DNA of 64,000 bases from Pseudonocardiales bacterium (GTDB lineage Bacteria > Actinomycetota > Actinomycetes > Mycobacteriales > Pseudonocardiaceae): assembly GCA_052390495.1 (NCBI GenBank), contig JBQTGW010000240.1, positions 33,232 through 97,231 on the forward strand, written 5' to 3'. The notes below the pieces were generated by a model. It did not search any database and was not told the origin of the DNA. It saw only the letters and a list, made by a program, of their open reading frames with translations. Below are positions 32,188-40,396 of the stretch, piece after piece. Both the position numbers and the translations under genes were made by a program. The first letter of the stretch is position 1, and each line of letters begins with the position of its first letter.

Positions 32188-32357
32188 CCTGTCATCCATC
32201 CCCGCCTACGTTCCTCACAACTGAACACCTCTTGAACCGCTGACCGCAGCGGGCGAGACACCACGTATACTCAAGACTGACAGCATCAATCTCCCAGTCA
32301 TTGCCCTGCCATACTCTGCAAAGCCAGTCGACACCCAAGTTGATCAATATCAGATGC

Positions 32358-32750
32358 ATGAGCTGGAGCGTGATGATCTCTCCTCTATCACCACCACTTC
32401 CGGCAATCAAGTTCTTCAAGGACGCCGTTGAAGACATCCTTGCCGGCATCAAGACTCTGGAGCCTCGCCCACGGACTCTCGCATGGATAAAGCGTCTTGA
32501 ACAGGCAGGATGTGCATCGTTGACATACGGACCGCGATTTGGTGCACCAACAATCTTCGCCAAAGCACGTATCACCGACGTTACAATCCGACCATTCGAG
32601 ACGGTCACGCCCCAGGATTTGGTACGCATCGGGACAGCGTGGCGCAGCGAAAGTGTCGAGAGTTTCATCAGCGAATATACTCGATGGTTCAAAAATGAAC
32701 TGGACAAAGGATATCCGGTGGCCTGGATTAGCTTCGAGGTCGCAGGATGA
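32358..32750 (+). CDS. ASCH-domain protein (YqfB-like PUA-fold)
   Basis: IKFFKDAVEDILAGIKTLEPRPRT closely mirrors the E. coli YqfB N-terminus [23 protein letters not shown], which I recalled from memory. The start is uncertain (ATG at 32358 or 32373; the track TTG is at 32301). There is an ATGA overlap with the next gene. Confidence 0.6.
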   Translation: MSWSVMISPLSPPLPAIKFFKDAVEDILAGIKTLEPRPRTLAWIKRLEQAGCASLTYGPRFGAPTIFAKARITDVTIRPFETVTPQDLVRIGTAWRSESVESFISEYTRWFKNELDKGYPVAWISFEVAG

Positions 32751-33775
32751 CCGACGTCGATATCCCGTACGAGACGCGCTACTACGAACGGTCGGCGCAG
32801 CGATACATGGTACGCTATCTTCAGACCCGCCTGTCCATCAATGTACCGTGGGGACTTTCCGGAAGTCCGGCATGCCGCCCTGAGATCGATGCGATTTCGA
32901 TTCTGGAACGCCGTGTTATACCGATCGAAATTAAGGCATATGAACTTGAGGATTCTGATGTTGATGAAATTGTTGCCAAATACAGTAATCTGGGTTTTCG
33001 CCAGCTAATCATTGTTGCACCCGGCGCTTCTGATCGTGCAGCACGCTCGCTTGCCGCCAAGACACTTGTAAATGATTTCGTGATTTTCCGTCCCCAAGTA
33101 GAAGAAATTAGTGACTGGTATCACTACGTCTGGCCGAAGTATGTTCCAGACTGGGTGCATCATACCCTGTCGAGCGGCCGCCATCATATTCGTTTCGTGC
33201 TATGCCGAGTCACGAGTCGAGGTCGCTTTGTGGTCGGTCAACAACGCTCACGAGTATATGGAGTCGATACGCTGAGCCGATTGCTGCATAACCTTCCGTC
33301 ACCACCGGTTCGTATCCTGTGGACGCCGCTACGCTTCACTATTCCACGGGATGTGATCGCCCGGAAGAGTCGGCTGACATCACTCGGCGGCTTCGTGCCA
33401 GTTGACATCGATGGAGATCGACTGCATCGGGCACTCTACGCTTGTGAAATCACACCGGAGAACGATTTCTGCCAGCTCTGCCTCAGACATGCGGAGAAGG
33501 AGCGAGACCGCATAGCTAATCAACTGGTTGCGCAGCCGGTCGATGTGGTAGCGAGTGGTGGTCGCGGTCTGCATATCTACTATTACGATGATGGCGCGAT
33601 ACGAACGCAGCTTCTTGACCTTGCGAATCGCCGCATAATCCGCATAGATAAAAATGTCACCGCGTCGACTAAATCGACCGTTGCGCTACCTGGTTCCCTG
33701 CACGCAGGAAGTTTGCGGCCTGTGGCCTCCTTAATCAGCCGACCAGACCTACGTGAGGTGACGGCATGCTCGTGA
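32747..33775 (+). CDS. fusion protein: N-terminal PD-(D/E)xK nuclease-like domain plus C-terminal archaeo-eukaryotic primase (AEP/PriS-like) domain
   Basis: The nuclease-like motifs are EIDAISI ... IPIEIKAYE. The AEP motifs are I (FVPVDIDGD), II (SGGRGLHIYYY) and III (IRIDKNVTASTKSTVALPGSLHAGS). Confidence 0.6.
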   Translation: MTDVDIPYETRYYERSAQRYMVRYLQTRLSINVPWGLSGSPACRPEIDAISILERRVIPIEIKAYELEDSDVDEIVAKYSNLGFRQLIIVAPGASDRAARSLAAKTLVNDFVIFRPQVEEISDWYHYVWPKYVPDWVHHTLSSGRHHIRFVLCRVTSRGRFVVGQQRSRVYGVDTLSRLLHNLPSPPVRILWTPLRFTIPRDVIARKSRLTSLGGFVPVDIDGDRLHRALYACEITPENDFCQLCLRHAEKERDRIANQLVAQPVDVVASGGRGLHIYYYDDGAIRTQLLDLANRRIIRIDKNVTASTKSTVALPGSLHAGSLRPVASLISRPDLREVTACS

Positions 33776-38269: not shown

Positions 38270-38815
38270 ATGCACATGCAGGAAAGCACACTCGTCATCA
38301 TCAAGCCTGACGCCTACCAACGTGGCCTGACGGGCGCAATTTTAGCGCGGTTTGAGCAGCGCGGCTTGACGCTGGACGGAATCCGGGTAAGCCACGGTGA
38401 GCACCAGATCCTCCAAGACCACTACCCACAAACCGAGGATTGGCTGTCAACAGTCGGCGGTAAGACGCTCGCCGACTACGCCAAGCTTGGGATCTCAGCG
38501 AAAGACCGGATTGACACCGATGACCCTGTAGAGATCGGGCGGACGGTACGCAAGTGGCTAGTGGAGTTCATGCTGAGTGGTCCGGTGGTGCCGATGGTTC
38601 TGTCAGGTAACCGGGTAATAGAGACTGTGCGTAAAATTGTCGGGCACACATTACCAGTCATGGCGGTACCCGGCACCATTCGTGGTGACTACAGTTCAGA
38701 CTCGGCGGATCTCGCGAACGACGAACTCCGACCAGTGCTCAACCTCGTGCACGCATCAGGTGATCCTGACGAGGCAGCGAGAGAGATCAAGCTTTGGTTT
38801 CCTGAGTTGGGGTAA
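38270..38815 (+). CDS. ndk: nucleoside-diphosphate kinase with an insertion of about 40 aa
   Basis: TLVIIKPDAYQRGLTGAILARFEQRGL ... LVEFMLSGPVVPMVLSG ... GTIRGDY ... NLVHASGDPDEAAREIKLWFPE. Extra sequence lies between HYPQ and LVEF relative to the usual roughly 140-aa NDK. Confidence 0.8.
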   Translation: MHMQESTLVIIKPDAYQRGLTGAILARFEQRGLTLDGIRVSHGEHQILQDHYPQTEDWLSTVGGKTLADYAKLGISAKDRIDTDDPVEIGRTVRKWLVEFMLSGPVVPMVLSGNRVIETVRKIVGHTLPVMAVPGTIRGDYSSDSADLANDELRPVLNLVHASGDPDEAAREIKLWFPELG

Positions 38816-39480
38816 TGACAATCAGCTGGACTCTCGAAGGCGAGCTGATGAAGCTCGCTGGCGCAGACGAGATCGCATCTGCGTTGACCATCCTCGGGAT
38901 CATCAAAGCCGACGAAGAATTCGTACTCGAAACTGTTCAAGACTGGTACCGATCGGGTGCGGAGACCTACTCTCTGCGTTTTTCGGTCTCTAACCAATCA
39001 TGTCAGCGCGAGTTTATGATGAAGGCGTGCGTCGCTTATGCCGGTGGAACACCACTCAATGACATTTTCGCTAGCTGGCTTTCGCGACGCAGCATCCTTG
39101 AGGATATAGGCGTAAGCACGCCGCGACTTCATGTAGCGGGCAACGCTGTCCTCGTGGAGGAGTATATCCATCAGAGTCTCGTCGACGCCTTAACGAGCGG
39201 GGAGCGGCGAGAGGCTATCTTGCGCGCAATTGGCCGTACTGCTGGTCTCCTTGTTTCGGCTGGTTTTGTACCGCTAAGCGCTTGCGATTGGCGCTCGCAC
39301 GGAGACGATGTTGTGTTGGTCGACTTTGGTCAGGATCTCGGACCGTCCGGCGTGGGGAACGGCTCAGAAGCTGGTTTGCTCTCCGAGGTGTTGGACAACG
39401 TAGACCAGGCCGGTATAGACTTAACTTCCACCGAACTCATACTCGTTAGCGCCGCCTACGAGGCGTCTTTGTCAAGCTAA
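38815..39480 (+). CDS. hypothetical protein with a possible protein-kinase-like (RIO/Kdo/APH-type) fold
   Basis: The putative beta3 Lys is REFMMKACV, the hinge is VLVEEYI and the DFG-like motif is VVLVDFGQD. The catalytic loop is atypical. There are TAATG overlaps at both ends (38815 and 39480). Confidence 0.35.
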   Translation: MTISWTLEGELMKLAGADEIASALTILGIIKADEEFVLETVQDWYRSGAETYSLRFSVSNQSCQREFMMKACVAYAGGTPLNDIFASWLSRRSILEDIGVSTPRLHVAGNAVLVEEYIHQSLVDALTSGERREAILRAIGRTAGLLVSAGFVPLSACDWRSHGDDVVLVDFGQDLGPSGVGNGSEAGLLSEVLDNVDQAGIDLTSTELILVSAAYEASLSS

Positions 39481-40396
39481 TGCAGATTTGGCGAAAACTA
39501 CCACCCGGCGGTCATGGTGTGATGTCAACAAGGCGGGACATCGCAGTACTCGATCACCTCAACGTCCACGAGGGCCACCACGTGCTGGAGATCGGAACAG
39601 GCACCAGCTACAACGCCGCATTGCTCGCGCATCGGCTCGACGCCGACCGAGTGACCACCATAGAGATCGATCCCGAGGTAGCCACCCACGCGCGCAAAGC
39701 CCTGTCGGACGCGGGATTCGGCGAGATCACGGTGCTAACTGGAGACGGGGCGCTCGGGTATCCCCCCGGAGCTCCGTACCACCGCGTGATCGCCACCGCC
39801 GCCTGCCGGACAGTGCCCTACCCGTGGGTAGACCAGACTCGCCCAGGAGGACGGATCGTGACCCATGGGGCACCCAGTACTACAACAGCGGACTGCTCGC
39901 GCTCACCGTCAACGATGACGGCACCGCCACCGGCGGGATCGTCGACACAGCTACCTTCATGTGGCTTCGTAACCAGCGCTTCACCCGCCACGCCATCAGC
40001 ACCACCGACGAGCAGGAGCAGCAAGCCAGCGTCACCGAGACCGATATTCACCCCGCCGAAGTCGCCAACTCGGACTTCTCACTCGGGGCCGCCATGACGA
40101 TCGGCTTGCGAGTGCAGAACTGCCGATCGAGCTACACTCCGCCCGAGTCCGACCCCAACGGCGAAGGAATTCTGTGGCTGGCCGACCACGAATCGCGCTC
40201 GTGGGCACGGCTACACCACGACCCTGGCAGCGACGGCCCTTACCGCGTATACCAGTTCGGTCCACGCACGCTGTGGGACGAAGTCGCAGCCGCCCACCGC
40301 TGGTGGGCCAAGCAAGGTCGACCCGAGACCGACAGCTGGGTGTTCACCGTGACTCCGCAAGGTCAGCGGATCGAGCTGCCGGATTCCAGAACATGA
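39480..40396 (+). pseudogene. PIMT-like (protein-L-isoaspartate O-methyltransferase-family) methyltransferase with a C-terminal extension, frameshifted at about 39861-39870
   Basis: ORF 39480..40097 carries VLEIGTGTSYNAALLA...GDGALGYPPGAPYHRVIATAA...PGGRIVT. ORF 39488..40396 continues as (P)WGTQYYNSGLLALTVNDDG... in another frame. acccatgggg looks like accccatgggg minus one C. Confidence 0.6.

What the first reader, a model, noticed from the sequence alone, without database searches (positions are those of the whole stretch)
32190..40396. Low-GC 10-gene operon that pairs four SAM-consuming chemistries with a nucleotide phosphorylation ladder, an NTP pyrophosphatase and an AEP primase-polymerase: candidate undescribed nucleotide/nucleic-acid hypermodification or defence system
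From about 32.19 kb the composition drops visibly and many codons end in A/T, while the flanks are about 70% GC. Ten ORFs lie on the + strand with coupled junctions: ATGA at 32747, a 10-nt overlap at 33766, TAGTG at 34701, ATGA at 36969, and TAATG at 38815 and 39480. That pattern suggests one horizontally acquired transcription unit.

The motif-based calls, in order, are:
- ASCH/YqfB-like protein;
- PD-(D/E)xK + AEP(PriS)-like protein;
- BpsA/DUF43 aminopropyltransferase-like protein;
- HAM1-QueA fusion;
- archaeal AdkA-like NMP kinase;
- L7Ae-like protein;
- AdoMetDC-like protein;
- NDK with an insertion;
- kinase-fold protein;
- PIMT-like methyltransferase.

SAM could therefore be used in four ways: decarboxylation, aminopropyl transfer, ribosyl transfer-isomerisation and methyl transfer. 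These sit beside an NMP to NDP to NTP ladder, an NTP-to-NMP sanitiser, and a polymerase/nuclease. Almost every family is archaeal-type, which is odd in an actinomycete. There is no integrase, tRNA gene or obvious att site.

I know of no described pathway with this gene set. My hypotheses are:
1. Synthesis of an aminopropyl- or cyclopentane-decorated nucleotide that is incorporated into, or installed on, DNA or RNA.
2. Production of an antiviral nucleotide analogue, by analogy with viperin-plus-kinase loci.
3. Biosynthesis of a nucleoside natural product.
Basis: partly seen in the sequence, partly recalled or inferred. Interest (0 to 1): 0.9.

Follow-up and report, generated by a model that had tools for sequence, protein, structure and literature searches.

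The report
Mobile nucleotide-modifying operon with kink-turn RNA

Summary
Window 32.25-39.48 kb has GC 0.56 against 0.68 elsewhere (GC3 0.53-0.66 against 0.78-0.91), and all six coupled junctions are as stated. Profile, motif and structure searches support nine of the ten domain calls. The tenth gene (PIMT-like) is an unrelated, 5'-truncated and frameshifted host pseudogene.

Seven genes recur together in at least 16 loci, in three different gene orders: ASCH, PD-(D/E)xK+PriS-type AEP, BpsA-like transferase, HAM1-QueA fusion, archaeal-type NMP kinase, L7Ae-like protein and AdoMetDC. The hosts are uncultured Actinomycetota, Clostridiales and other low-GC bacteria. NDK plus a RIO/Bud32-like kinase is a recurrent accessory pair. 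The system is very rare and absent from the phage, plasmid, defence-model and literature resources searched.

New finding: an ~85-nt RNA always lies beside the L7Ae-like gene. It has two canonical kink-turns and strong covariation (96% paired, 14 compensatory pairs, 0/500 shuffles). In the window it lies at 37608->37524, antisense to the operon, behind a conserved extended -10 motif.

Function is inferred, not shown. The best reading is an RNA-protein machine that builds an aminopropyl/cyclopentane-decorated purine nucleotide and places it in nucleic acid. A defence role is plausible but unproven.

The parts
32373..32750 (+). g1, ASCH-domain protein (125 aa); core gene
   Evidence: Pfam ASCH 1.2e-7, above the gathering score. 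Present in every complete locus. No solved relative by sequence. The 'YqfB-like' enzymatic subtype was not tested.
32747..33775 (+). g2, N-terminal PD-(D/E)xK nuclease domain fused to a PriS-type archaeo-eukaryotic primase (AEP) domain with a Zn knuckle (342 aa); core gene
   Evidence: Invariant D48, E61, K63; D220-x-D222; C233, C242, C245; S270-G-x-R-G-x-H276; D301. The family profile's top 21 PDB hits are all PriS. AF2 pLDDT 84.3. The top 23 Foldseek PDB hits are PriS/Pri1, followed by NucS/EndoMS, AF1548, MspJI, Cap4 and Can2 for the N-terminal domain. The family has 46 clusters, all unnamed.
33766..34701 (+). g3, BpsA_C-type (DUF43) aminopropyltransferase-like protein (311 aa); core gene
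   Evidence: Pfam BpsA_C 4.5e-23. Best PDB hit is BpsA 5xnc, 2.4e-10. GDDD and TDPPY are invariant in 12 family members, whereas BpsA has TDPPE. GDDD positions the aminopropyl group of dcSAM in BpsA (PMC12979288).
34701..36371 (+). g4, fusion of a HAM1/ITPase-type NTP pyrophosphatase (residues 1-190) with a QueA-type SAM ribosyltransferase-isomerase (residues 211-556); core gene
   Evidence: Pfam Ham1p_like 2.4e-20 and Queuosine_synth 1e-81. Both fall below the NCBIfam equivalog cut-offs. Full-length alignment to solved QueA 1vky, 1yy3 and 1wdi, and to HAM1 1b78. The catalytic 'VEDSGF' Asp, the 'EIQ' Glu and the N-terminal Lys are conserved, while the SHR motif is replaced by W-x-K-x-SVF. About 47 clusters carry this fusion.
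36406..36972 (+). g5, archaeal-type adenylate/NMP kinase-like P-loop kinase (188 aa); core gene
   Evidence: NCBIfam PRK04040 2.8e-26, below its cut-off. Best PDB hits are archaeal adenylate kinases such as 1nks. Weak PADLOC 'VakA' hit, 3.7e-7.
36969..37541 (+). g6, L7Ae/eS12/YlxQ-fold RNA-binding protein with an uncharacterised ~90-aa N-terminal domain (190 aa); core gene
   Evidence: Family profile A3 against PDB: eS12/L7Ae at 1.7e-7 and many L7Ae entries, covering residues ~85-167. Low-GC homologues hit Pfam L7Ae directly. In L031 the N-terminal part has a weak MutH match.
37524..37608 (-). Small structured RNA with two kink-turns (Kt1: C-stem 37600-37595/37589-37584, bulge+GA 37583-37577; Kt2: C-stem 37571-37563/37533-37525, bulge+GA 37562-37555; apical 3-bp hairpin with 7-nt loop 37555-37543). 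It is antisense to the operon and overlaps the last 18 nt of g6.
   Evidence: The spacer is far better conserved than the flanking proteins. Manual 2-K-turn structure on 14 sequences: 96.3% of cells paired, 14 pairs and 35 cells with compensatory change, 0/500 shuffles reach it, slid registers 34-51% (12-sequence version). Covariance model R2 finds one strong hit per locus, always beside the L7Ae gene, including loci not used to build it (L034 82.9 bits, L032 54.8, L031 44). Strand: 96.3% paired against 74.8% on the opposite strand, with 65 G.U cells; the GA dinucleotides are invariant. No Rfam match at E<=1.
37617..37625 (-). Extended -10-like motif TGCTACTCT (TGnTAnnnT), 17 nt upstream of the RNA model start on the RNA strand
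   Evidence: Present at -16/-17 in 10 of 12 actinomycete loci, with the n positions varying. The measured chance rate, for a nearby position window (-26 to -18), is 0.0008 per sequence. T, A and T are invariant columns. The consensus sigma-70 scan finds nothing, so this is a motif-level inference.
37640..38026 (+). g7, pyruvoyl-type S-adenosylmethionine decarboxylase homologue (128 aa); core gene
   Evidence: Pfam AdoMet_dc 6.8e-19. PDB 1tlu/1vr7, ~1e-10. The pyruvoyl-precursor Ser and the downstream Cys are invariant; E->Q/S before the Ser, and H->S in the actinomycete copies. Substrate not proven.
38270..38815 (+). g8, nucleoside diphosphate kinase of the long, insertion-bearing subtype (181 aa); recurrent accessory gene
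   Evidence: Pfam NDK 2.2e-33 in two stretches. PDB 1xqi 4.7e-54, contiguous through the insertion. Present in the window, L010/L028, L029 and L030; absent from 6 actinomycete loci and all low-GC loci.
38815..39480 (+). g9, RIO/Bud32-like minimal protein-kinase-fold protein (221 aa); recurrent accessory gene that follows NDK
   Evidence: No Pfam match; weak Bud32 hit. Family of 56 unnamed clusters. Invariant K70, E115-E116, D158 and D170-F-G. AF2 pLDDT 89.8. Foldseek top hits are A. fulgidus Rio1, RIOK2/3 and PRPK/Bud32. Homologue in L030 at 25% identity.
39480..40396 (+). NOT part of the system: 5'-truncated, frameshifted remnant of an ATP-grasp-peptide-maturase-system (PIMT-like) methyltransferase gene
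   Evidence: TIGR04188 model positions 98-204 (frame of 39480) and 209-362 (frame of 39869). GC3 0.72-0.79. Absent next to g9 in L010/L028.

Best explanation
The locus is a rare, horizontally mobile ribonucleoprotein system with seven core genes, one small RNA and an optional NDK + RIO-like kinase pair.

Shown: the gene set and the RNA are conserved across distant hosts and three gene orders; the catalytic motifs are intact; and the RNA has two kink-turns next to the gene for an L7Ae-fold protein.

Inferred mechanism:
(1) g7 decarboxylates SAM to dcSAM.
(2) g3 keeps the dcSAM-positioning GDDD motif of BpsA. It has the DPPY motif typical of enzymes that alkylate planar exocyclic amines, where BpsA has DPPE. 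It transfers an aminopropyl group to a nucleobase nitrogen, probably of a purine.
(3) The QueA domain of g4 uses a second SAM to graft its ribose-derived epoxy-cyclopentanediol onto that new primary amine, just as QueA does on the aminomethyl group of preQ1.
(4) The fused, apparently active HAM1 domain supplies or recycles the monophosphate form (NTP -> NMP + PPi). The NMP kinase g5 and, where present, NDK g8 return the product to the triphosphate. This is the logic of phage T4 hydroxymethyl-dCTP synthesis.
(5) The PriS-type AEP of g2 puts the modified nucleotide into a nucleic acid, and its nuclease domain cuts or processes the target.
(6) The L7Ae-like protein bound to the double kink-turn RNA is the scaffold, and possibly the primer, template or substrate, of this machine.
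(7) ASCH reads or trims the modified base.

The biological role is most likely a conflict function against, or on behalf of, mobile elements.
For: Co-occurrence: the same seven genes occur in at least 16 distinct loci with three gene orders, down to 26-48% protein identity. The families of g2, the g4 fusion and g9 have similar small sizes (46, ~47 and 56 clusters). Intact chemistry: AEP motifs I-III plus the Zn knuckle and D..ExK; GDDD plus DPPY invariant, with the role of GDDD from PMC12979288; HAM1 catalytic Asp retained, unlike the inactive KomB sensors; pyruvoyl Ser retained; QueA domain full-length. All the enzymes score below the NCBIfam equivalog cut-offs of their housekeeping counterparts, which points to specialised paralogues. 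The HAM1-QueA fusion argues that the QueA-type step is coupled to a nucleotide. RNA. Mobility: the island is 4-9 GC points below its flanks in most hosts. Neighbours include a TrwC relaxase, an integrase, a group II intron RT and an IS. Several loci are decayed or truncated (L013, L014, L018, L019). Precedent for a PriS-type AEP in a validated defence polymerase: DRT7/UG10.
Against: No step of the chemistry has been tested. The acceptor of g3 could be a polyamine, as it is for BpsA. AdoMetDC homologues can have other substrates, and the actinomycete copies have lost a conserved His. The HAM1 base-specificity motif is changed, so its substrate is unknown. NDK is missing from most loci, so the 'ladder' relies on the host there. 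Nothing shows that the AEP uses the RNA or a modified nucleotide. There is no defence-island signal: 0 of 10 neighbours hit PADLOC, and only one locus (L003) sits beside TIR/STAND genes. The single-sequence fold of the RNA is not unusually stable (z = -0.69). All hosts are uncultured, so no phenotype is known.
Confidence: 0.35

Rival explanations
1. RNA-directed version. The modification is made on an RNA after transcription, either on the island's own kink-turn RNA (for example in its conserved 7-nt apical loop) or on a cellular tRNA or rRNA. L7Ae bound to the two kink-turns nucleates an RNP, as it does in archaeal box C/D particles, and positions the BpsA-like and QueA-like transferases. The nucleotide enzymes are only ancillary.
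For: QueA's natural substrate is a base in the 7-nt loop of an RNA hairpin (established knowledge), and the RNA has a conserved 3-bp hairpin with a 7-nt loop YGCRRCM. L7Ae, two K-turn motifs and a class-I SAM-dependent transferase are the ingredients of box C/D RNPs. ASCH, L7Ae and RIO/Bud32-like proteins all belong to RNA-associated families. DPPY also occurs in RNA N2-guanine methyltransferases (own knowledge).
Against: It does not explain why an active-looking NTP pyrophosphatase is fused to QueA, why an NMP kinase is core, or why a primase-nuclease is core. The RNA sequence is conserved and has no variable guide-like segment.
Confidence: 0.2
2. Small-molecule version. The system makes a free modified nucleotide, or a short AEP-made oligonucleotide, that acts as an antiviral chain terminator, a poison or an immune signal. 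Models are viperin plus kinase loci and Kongming (dITP). The RNA and L7Ae only regulate expression.
For: A HAM1-like protein works in Kongming defence, and one solved relative of the HAM1 domain is KomB. g5 has a weak match to a PADLOC kinase model, VakA. Primases naturally make di- and oligonucleotides (established knowledge). The phosphorylation steps fit production of a triphosphate.
Against: No effector such as SIR2, TIR or a pore-former is conserved with the system. The HAM1 domain keeps the catalytic Asp that all KomB-type sensors have lost. No PADLOC model matches any core gene beyond weak generic hits. It gives no role to the nuclease domain or to ASCH.
Confidence: 0.15
3. The kink-turn element is only a cis-regulatory site through which the L7Ae-like protein controls translation of neighbouring genes, as archaeal L7Ae does on its own mRNA. 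It is not a functional RNA partner of the enzymes.
For: In the low-GC loci and in L031 the element lies in the sense strand of the operon. It sits between the L7Ae gene and the next gene and reaches almost to that gene's start codon.
Against: In all 12 actinomycete loci the K-turn strand is antisense to the operon, so the kink-turns cannot form in the mRNA. There it has its own conserved TGnTAnnnT motif. Position beside the L7Ae gene is kept while orientation and the downstream gene change (AdoMetDC, NDK or AEP). A regulator-only role would not explain why L7Ae and the RNA are core parts of a seven-gene enzymatic set.
Confidence: 0.2
4. Biosynthetic gene cluster for a nucleoside or polyamine natural product, or a polyamine pathway variant.
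For: AdoMetDC plus a BpsA-like aminopropyltransferase is the core of branched polyamine synthesis. The host order is rich in natural products.
Against: There is no transporter, resistance, regulator or tailoring gene in the conserved set. The same seven genes plus the RNA occur in low-GC anaerobe-type contigs. The primase-nuclease, L7Ae, the K-turn RNA and ASCH have no place in such a pathway. g3 has DPPY where BpsA has DPPE.
Confidence: 0.05

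Closest known systems
Queuosine pathway step QueA (preQ1-tRNA -> epoxyqueuosine-tRNA)
   Same: The C-terminal 345 residues of g4 align end to end with solved QueA enzymes (E 1e-41 to 1e-48) and hit Pfam Queuosine_synth at 1e-81. 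The chemistry proposed here, SAM ribosyl transfer-isomerisation onto a primary amine, is QueA's.
   Different: It is fused to HAM1, scores below the QueA equivalog cut-offs (269 vs 324; 234 vs 267), and is about 37% identical to ordinary QueA. It sits with no tgt or queG/H in a mobile island. The amine acceptor cannot be assumed to be preQ1-tRNA.
BpsA branched-chain polyamine synthase + AdoMetDC (Thermococcus/Thermus)
   Same: Best solved relative of g3 (5xnc, 2.4e-10). It shares the GDDD motif that positions the dcSAM aminopropyl group and is paired with an AdoMetDC homologue.
   Different: It lacks the BpsA N-terminal domain. It has DPPY in place of DPPE. The hosts are mesophile-type MAGs, and the genomic partners (AEP, HAM1-QueA, L7Ae, RNA) are unrelated to polyamine metabolism.
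Archaeal box C/D (and H/ACA) RNPs: L7Ae on K-turn/K-loop RNA recruiting a SAM-dependent modifying enzyme
   Same: An L7Ae-fold protein, an RNA with two kink-turn motifs of canonical polarity and invariant tandem G.A pairs, and SAM-dependent class-I-fold transferases encoded alongside.
   Different: No Nop5 or fibrillarin. The motif order differs (each K-turn is local, not formed by the RNA termini). There is no variable guide segment. The protein has an extra N-terminal domain. The host is bacterial and the locus is mobile.
Phage nucleotide-level DNA hypermodification (T4 hm-dCTP; Z-genome PurZ/MazZ/DatZ/DpoZ)
   Same: The same logic: an NTP pyrophosphatase makes the NMP, the base is modified, an NMP kinase and NDK restore the NTP, and a dedicated polymerase uses it (established knowledge; components).
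   Different: It is not in a phage: there are no viral, phage or plasmid matches. The enzyme families are different, and those pathways have no RNA or L7Ae component.
Kongming (KomABC) and polymerase+ncRNA defence systems (retrons, DRT; DRT7/UG10 has a PriS AEP domain)
   Same: A HAM1-family module (KomB is a solved relative), nucleotide chemistry at the heart of the system, a PriS-type AEP as in DRT7, and a polymerase encoded beside a structured ncRNA as in retrons and DRTs.
   Different: The HAM1 domain keeps its catalytic Asp, whereas KomB has His. There is no SIR2, no reverse transcriptase and no PADLOC match. A defence phenotype is unknown.

Membership tests
Archaeo-eukaryotic primase (AEP) superfamily, PriS type (g2 C-terminal domain) | Catalytic motifs I (DxD), II (sGxGxH) and III (hD) | tested here: met
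   D220-I-D222, S270-G-G-R-G-x-H276 and D301 are invariant in 18 family members.
Archaeo-eukaryotic primase (AEP) superfamily, PriS type (g2 C-terminal domain) | PriS fold with a Zn-binding knuckle between motifs I and II | tested here: met
   C233, C242 and C245 are invariant. The profile's top 21 PDB hits are all PriS. The top 23 Foldseek hits are PriS/Pri1, TM 0.33-0.44. The Pfam PF01896 score is 24.7, just below its gathering score of 26.8, in the window copy, but the family passes in several relatives.
Archaeo-eukaryotic primase (AEP) superfamily, PriS type (g2 C-terminal domain) | Primase or polymerase activity | not testable with these tools
   Needs a biochemical assay.
PD-(D/E)xK nuclease superfamily (g2 N-terminal domain) | D...(D/E)xK catalytic motif on a restriction-endonuclease-like fold | tested here: met
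   D48, E61 and K63 are invariant. Foldseek hits to NucS/EndoMS, AF1548, MspJI, Cap4 and Can2 at E 1.6e-3 to 0.1 with low TM, because they cover only one domain.
BpsA / DUF43 aminopropyltransferases (g3) | BpsA_C domain with the GDDD motif that positions the dcSAM aminopropyl group | tested here: met
   Pfam 4.5e-23; GDDD invariant; role of the motif from PMC12979288.
BpsA / DUF43 aminopropyltransferases (g3) | Polyamine acceptor site (DPPE context) and the N-terminal BpsA domain | tested here: not met
   TDPPY in all 12 members against TDPPE in BpsA 5xnc. The alignment to BpsA starts at BpsA residue ~138, and no BpsA_N hit was found. It is therefore filed as BpsA-like, not as BpsA.
QueA (tRNA preQ1(34) S-adenosylmethionine ribosyltransferase-isomerase) | Full-length Queuosine_synth domain | tested here: met
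   Pfam 1e-81, profile positions 3-322 of 322; end-to-end PDB alignments.
QueA (tRNA preQ1(34) S-adenosylmethionine ribosyltransferase-isomerase) | Score above the curated equivalog cut-off (same function as canonical QueA) | tested here: not met
   NF001140 269.4 vs 324; TIGR00113 234.3 vs 267.45.
QueA (tRNA preQ1(34) S-adenosylmethionine ribosyltransferase-isomerase) | Acts on preQ1 at tRNA position 34, in a genome with tgt | not tested
   No tgt or other que genes lie in the window near the island. The whole genome is not available.
HAM1/ITPase non-canonical purine NTP pyrophosphatases (g4 N-terminal domain) | Ham1p_like fold with the catalytic Asp and the Mg/phosphate-binding Lys and Glu | tested here: met
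   Pfam 2.4e-20. K, E ('EIQ') and D ('VEDSGF') are conserved in 6 of 7 copies; L019 reads EDNGF.
HAM1/ITPase non-canonical purine NTP pyrophosphatases (g4 N-terminal domain) | C-terminal SHR specificity motif; equivalog score | tested here: not met
   SHR is replaced by W-x-K-x-SVF. TIGR00042 72.7 vs 145.35.
KomB-type defensive HAM1 (Kongming) | Catalytic Asp replaced by His; association with a SIR2 effector (KomC) | tested here: not met
   The Asp is retained, and there is no SIR2 in any locus. Criteria are from bioRxiv 10.1101/2024.12.20.629578.
L7Ae/L30e/eS12/YlxQ RNA-binding fold (g6) | Sequence-profile membership of the fold | tested here: met
   Family profile against PDB 1.7e-7, with >100 L7Ae/eS12/Snu13 entries. 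Pfam L7Ae hits in low-GC homologues. The single window sequence alone is weak (0.024).
L7Ae/L30e/eS12/YlxQ RNA-binding fold (g6) | Binds a kink-turn RNA | not testable with these tools
   Supported indirectly: a double K-turn RNA lies beside the gene in 18 of 18 loci that cover that flank.
Kink-turn RNA motif (both motifs of the new RNA) | C helix, 3-nt bulge, tandem sheared G.A/A.G, NC helix, in the correct strand polarity | tested here: met
   Columns 7-8, 26-30, 62-66 and 89-90 of A10. GA is invariant on three strands, and G/A then A on the fourth. Bulges are GAU, AAU or AGU. The C helices covary.
Box C/D sRNA | Terminal C/D K-turn plus internal C'/D' K-loop flanking guide segments; Nop5 and fibrillarin partners | tested here: not met
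   The topology differs (both K-turns are local), there is no variable guide, there is no Rfam hit, and no Nop5 or fibrillarin is in any locus.
Pyruvoyl AdoMetDC (SpeH/SpeD class 1) (g7) | AdoMet_dc fold with a self-cleaving Ser | tested here: met
   Pfam 6.8e-19; Ser invariant.
Pyruvoyl AdoMetDC (SpeH/SpeD class 1) (g7) | SAM as substrate (equivalog level) | tested here: inconclusive
   TIGR03330 57.8 vs 75.65. ES->QS/SS at the cleavage site, and the conserved His is lost in actinomycete copies.
RIO/Bud32 atypical protein kinases (g9) | Minimal kinase fold with the beta3 Lys, catalytic Asp and DFG Asp | tested here: met
   K70, D158 and D170-F-G are invariant. Foldseek top hits are Rio1, RIOK2/3 and PRPK, TM 0.45-0.54. 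Sequence-level membership is not met: Bud32 17.3 bits vs a cut-off of 125.
Known anti-phage defence systems (PADLOC-DB v2) | Core proteins match a defence-system model; location in defence islands | tested here: not met
   Only weak generic hits (mad2 MTase 4.9e-5; VakA 3.7e-7). 0 of 10 neighbours hit. One locus of about 16 lies beside TIR+STAND genes.

The most novel reading that the evidence does not exclude
A bacterial, mobile, L7Ae/kink-turn RNP of archaeal ancestry that works as a self-contained nucleic-acid hypermodification and synthesis machine. It would use dcSAM and SAM in succession to build a queuosine-like aminopropyl-cyclopentanediol purine. A primase-type polymerase would install it in DNA or RNA, primed, templated or scaffolded by the system's own small RNA. 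That would mean a new modified base, a new use of QueA chemistry outside tRNA, and the first AEP-plus-ncRNA system comparable to retrons and DRTs.
Probability: 0.2. Interest if true: 0.92.

Novelty: categorically new. Interest (0 to 1): 0.82.

Why it matters
If the inferred chemistry is right, this would be a new nucleobase hypermodification: aminopropylation from dcSAM followed by QueA-type cyclopentanediol grafting. It would also be the first use of QueA chemistry outside the tRNA queuosine pathway.

Whatever the chemistry, three things stand out:
- An L7Ae protein paired with a double kink-turn RNA in a bacterial mobile element.
- Its linkage to a nuclease-primase fusion.
- The fact that most components have archaeal closest solved relatives.

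Together these describe a kind of RNP system with no described counterpart. The system is compact (about 6-7 kb), so it can be tested directly by heterologous expression. It could yield new enzymes for nucleic-acid labelling, a new orthogonal L7Ae/K-turn pair, and possibly a new immunity or counter-immunity mechanism.

Tried and rejected
1. Gene 10 as a system component: rejected. It is a truncated, frameshifted TIGR04188 pseudogene with host-like GC3, and it is not conserved.

2. The spacer element as an AdoMetDC leader or riboswitch: rejected. In clade 2 AdoMetDC is at the front of the operon, yet the element stays after the L7Ae gene. It also has no Rfam match.

3. Plus-strand RNA in the window: rejected. 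Pairing is 74.8% against 96.3%, and the GA motifs exist on the minus strand only.

4. Flanking att repeats, tRNA target or integrase in the window: none found. I looked for the missing 5' part of the methyltransferase upstream of the island only by eye, among the ORFs, and saw nothing. No formal search was run.

5. Phage or plasmid origin: no viral, phage or plasmid relatives of the AEP or the RNA. The phage hits to g4 cover only the QueA portion, at 30-35% identity. The BFVD fold hits are generic primase domains.

6. Defence-island context: not supported by the PADLOC scan of 10 neighbours.

7. KomB-like sensor role for HAM1: rejected on the catalytic-Asp criterion.

8. Consensus sigma-70 promoter and intrinsic terminator scan around the RNA: nothing found. 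Thermodynamic stability of the single sequence is not significant.

10. Literature: six searches for any co-mention of the components found no description of the system.

Full report
OBSERVATION. The compositional island is real. In most 500-nt windows GC falls to 0.51-0.61 between about 32250 and 39500, against about 0.64-0.73 on either side. The island averages 0.560 against 0.676 for the rest of the window. Third-codon-position GC is 0.53-0.66 in the nine island genes and 0.78-0.91 in three flanking host genes. The only tRNA in the window is at 16738-16825. I found no flanking att-like repeat and no integrase.

DOMAIN CALLS. Nine of the ten calls hold.
- g1 is an ASCH domain (Pfam 1.2e-7).
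- g2 has an invariant D48...E61-x-K63 nuclease motif. It also has all three AEP motifs (D220xD222, S270GGRGxH276, D301) and a three-Cys knuckle. Its family profile's top 21 PDB hits are all PriS primase subunits. A confident AlphaFold model (pLDDT 84.3) gives PriS/Pri1 as its top 23 structural neighbours, then NucS/EndoMS and other PD-(D/E)xK nucleases for the N-terminal domain.
- g3 is BpsA_C (4.5e-23), and its best solved relative is BpsA.
- g4 is a HAM1 + QueA fusion (2.4e-20 and 1e-81).
- g5 is closest to archaeal adenylate kinases.
- g6 is weak on its own (0.024), but its family profile matches L7Ae/eS12 at 1.7e-7.
- g7 is an AdoMetDC homologue (6.8e-19).
- g8 is an NDK whose 'insertion' is shared, without a gap, with the solved enzyme 1xqi (4.7e-54).
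- g9 has no Pfam match. Its 56-member family has an invariant Lys, a catalytic Asp and a DFG, and its model (pLDDT 89.8) matches Rio1, RIOK2/3 and PRPK/Bud32.

The tenth gene is not part of the unit. Its two reading frames match positions 98-204 and 209-362 of one model, the 'ATP-grasp peptide maturase system methyltransferase'. It is therefore a single gene that has lost its 5' end and carries a frameshift near 39866. Its GC3 is host-like, and it is missing beside g9 in the closest relative.

RECURRENCE. That test is passed decisively. The HAM1-QueA fusion defines about 47 protein clusters. In every contig long enough to judge, the same seven genes accompany it: ASCH, nuclease-AEP, BpsA-like, HAM1-QueA, NMP kinase, L7Ae-like and AdoMetDC. 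They occur in three arrangements:
(A) The window's order. This is also found in a Clostridiales MAG at 45% identity (L031).
(B) AdoMetDC moved to the front, often preceded by an Amidohydro_3 protein. This occurs in other Actinomycetota, including Egibacteraceae.
(C) Two divergent operons in low-GC contigs.

Constant content with changing order, down to 26-48% identity, is strong evidence of functional linkage. NDK plus the RIO-like kinase is an accessory pair. It is present in the window, L010, L029 (NDK only) and L030, but absent from six actinomycete loci and all low-GC loci. The g2 and g9 families (46 and 56 clusters, all unnamed) are about as large as the fusion family, so these proteins are specific to the system.

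The system is very rare. It occurs in 9 loci among 185,579 species-representative genomes and in 8 among 241 million metagenome records, though both scans used a narrow peptide pattern. It was not found in viral contigs, phage records or plasmids. The island is 4-9 GC points below its flanks in most hosts. It lies near an integrase, a TrwC relaxase, a group II intron RT, an IS and HTH_31 regulators. Several copies are decayed or truncated (L013, L014, L018, L019). All of this fits a mobile accessory module.

THE RNA (new). Aligning the 100-nt spacer between g6 and g7 across eight loci showed near-identity at the DNA level, although the flanking proteins are only 42-59% identical. A first covariance model found exactly one copy per locus, always just after the L7Ae-like gene. 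This held even in arrangement B, where AdoMetDC is at the other end of the operon, so the element belongs with g6 and not with AdoMetDC.

The low-GC loci have a related element after their L7Ae gene, but it matches the reverse complement of the actinomycete element. Read on that strand, which is the minus strand in the window, the RNA has two kink-turns of canonical polarity:
- Kt1: 5'-UU-GA-[GGUGUG...CGCACC]-GAU-GA-GG.
- Kt2: [CCAGGCAGG]-GAU-GA-GAC...-GA-[CCUGUCUGG]. Its non-canonical arm is capped by a 3-bp hairpin with a 7-nt loop (YGCRRCM).

The low-GC Kt1 reads GCCAAUGAGG, which I recall as the bulged strand of the human U4 snRNA kink-turn. That identity is from my own knowledge and was not checked here.

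On a 14-sequence alignment, 96.3% of pair cells form standard pairs. Fourteen pairs and 35 cells show changes on both sides. None of 500 column shuffles reaches any of the five measures, and sliding the partners by 1-3 columns gives 34-51% pairing and at most 5 compensatory pairs (the 12-sequence version is). Two of the 14 sequences (L029, L030) were added after the structure was drawn, and they fit it with new compensatory pairs.

A second model, built in the right orientation, then found the RNA in four loci it had never seen: L034 at 82.9 bits, L032 at 54.8, L031 at 44, and L035 cut off by the contig end. Each hit lies beside the L7Ae gene, and there is no second copy in the 64-kb window. 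The strand is fixed by 65 G.U cells: pairing is 96.3% on this strand and 74.8% on the other. It is also fixed by the four GA dinucleotides, which are invariant except for one G/A position.

In L031 the gene order matches the window, yet the RNA is in the sense orientation. In all 12 actinomycete loci it is antisense. Position is conserved and orientation is not, which is what a discrete RNA module would show. Upstream of the actinomycete copies, on the RNA strand, 10 of 12 loci carry TGnTAnnnT at -16/-17 with variable n. This resembles an extended -10 promoter.

Caveats:
- I derived the structure from most of these sequences, so the slide control is biased in its favour.
- The sequences are related, so the shuffle control is not a probability.
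- The chance rate I measured for the -10 motif (0.0008) was for a nearby position window (-26 to -18), not the observed one.
- The consensus promoter/terminator scan found nothing.
- The single sequence is not unusually stable (z = -0.69).
- Rfam has no match.

WHAT THE ENZYMES SAY. g3 keeps the GDDD motif, which in BpsA salt-bridges the aminopropyl group of dcSAM and is indispensable (PMC12979288). This fits with the AdoMetDC homologue encoded alongside. But g3 invariably has TDPPY where BpsA has TDPPE. (D/N)PPY is the hallmark of class-I transferases that alkylate planar exocyclic amino groups of bases or amides (own knowledge). I therefore infer a nucleobase acceptor and not a polyamine.

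QueA chemistry needs a primary alkyl amine, and an aminopropyl group would supply one. The HAM1 domain keeps the catalytic Asp that all defensive KomB-type HAM1 sensors have replaced by His, so it is probably an active NTP pyrophosphatase. Its SHR specificity motif is changed, however. Every enzyme scores below the curated equivalog cut-off of its housekeeping counterpart, as expected for specialised paralogues.

An NTP pyrophosphatase, base-modifying enzymes, an NMP kinase, sometimes an NDK, and a dedicated polymerase together repeat the logic of phage nucleotide-level DNA hypermodification (established knowledge). The L7Ae/K-turn pair adds an RNP scaffold, as in box C/D particles. The AEP-plus-ncRNA pairing recalls retrons and DRT systems, one of which (DRT7/UG10) contains a PriS-type AEP domain needed for defence.

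VERDICT. It is secure that the locus is a real, mobile, conserved seven-gene-plus-RNA system, and that I could find no description of it in PADLOC, PHROGs, NCBIfam, Rfam or the paper library. The mechanism is inferred: synthesis of an aminopropyl/cyclopentane-decorated purine nucleotide, installed by the AEP in an RNP built on the K-turn RNA. I put it at about 0.35.

The main rivals are modification of an RNA itself (0.2), a free antiviral or signalling nucleotide (0.15), and a natural-product or polyamine pathway (0.05). Separately, there is a 0.2 chance that the RNA is only a regulatory site. A defence role is plausible from the mobility but not shown: none of ten neighbours matches a known defence model. 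Only one locus lies beside TIR/STAND genes.

Noticed in passing
window 32117-32166: Perfect 25-nt tandem duplication (GCCTGCAAGACTGGCGACGCTGGCT x2). It lies in the ~500-nt gap between the divergent 486-aa HTH-type gene (30414-31874, minus strand) and the first island gene. It could be an operator or an insertion scar.
   Followed up: no
window 39480-40396: Remnant of an ATP-grasp-peptide (graspetide-type) maturase-system methyltransferase gene, 5'-truncated and frameshifted near 39866. Its ATG overlaps the g9 stop (TAATG), so the right end of the island may have landed inside this host gene.
   Followed up: partly
window 41754-41895: A 34-nt perfect inverted repeat (41754-41787 / 41862-41895) encloses a 21-nt perfect hairpin (41801-41847). 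It lies between an unannotated 408-aa gene and the adenosine deaminase gene (41896-42996, minus strand).
   Followed up: no
window 38222-38232 (and L010 about 14440-14470): GTGCTAGCCTG, another TGnTAnnnT-type motif, is conserved between the window and L010 in the 244-nt g7-g8 spacer. This suggests that NDK and the RIO-like kinase form their own transcription unit. Only two sequences were compared.
   Followed up: partly
L004 5585-7240, L029 3772-5544, L030 5364-7250: In arrangement B a 550-630-aa Amidohydro_3 protein sits directly upstream of AdoMetDC. It resembles dihydropyrimidinase, allantoinase and nucleobase deaminases. It may be a further accessory enzyme acting on a base or a cyclic amide.
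   Followed up: partly
window 36969-37240 (g6 residues 1-90); L031 4945-5508: The L7Ae-like protein of the actinomycete and Clostridiales loci has an extra ~90-residue N-terminal domain that the 107-163-aa low-GC versions lack. It has no PDB or Pfam match. The L031 copy has a weak MutH match (2.9e-4).
   Followed up: partly
L003/L016 (contig_3240 of MAG MFD01213.bin.1.138), L003 6223-8006 and 16043-18831: In this locus a DDE transposase/DruA-like gene block is inserted between ASCH and the AEP, and the AEP is N-terminally shortened. A TIR protein and a STAND-WD40 NTPase lie 3 kb downstream. This is the only defence-like neighbourhood seen.
   Followed up: no
L031 5951-6355; L024 1604-1978: There are second ASCH copies: a 134-aa ASCH gene after AdoMetDC in the Clostridiales locus, and a degraded ASCH duplicate 4 kb upstream in L024.
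   Followed up: no
L027 6831-8105: In the most divergent low-GC locus, a 424-aa protein with a weak nucleoside-phosphorylase (PNP_UDP_1) match lies directly upstream of AdoMetDC. It could remove MTA or adenine by-products. The match is below threshold.
   Followed up: no
P0052, P0062, P0048/L019: HAM1 domains 53-67% identical to the one here occur fused to other partners: a cytidine-deaminase + APH-kinase fusion, a NUDIX fusion, and a 493-aa form next to a BpsA-like gene without a recognisable QueA domain. This hints at a wider set of HAM1-centred nucleotide systems.
   Followed up: no
all core proteins: The closest solved relatives are mostly archaeal: Pyrococcus and Sulfolobus PriS, P. abyssi NucS, M. 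jannaschii and P. horikoshii HAM1, Sulfolobus and Methanococcus adenylate kinases, archaeal L7Ae and A. fulgidus Rio1. BpsA is also best known from an archaeon. The organisms of 1nks and of 5xnc (BpsA) are from my own memory and were not shown by the tools. QueA and AdoMetDC have bacterial closest relatives. The scans found no archaeal locus, but the search patterns were narrow.
   Followed up: partly
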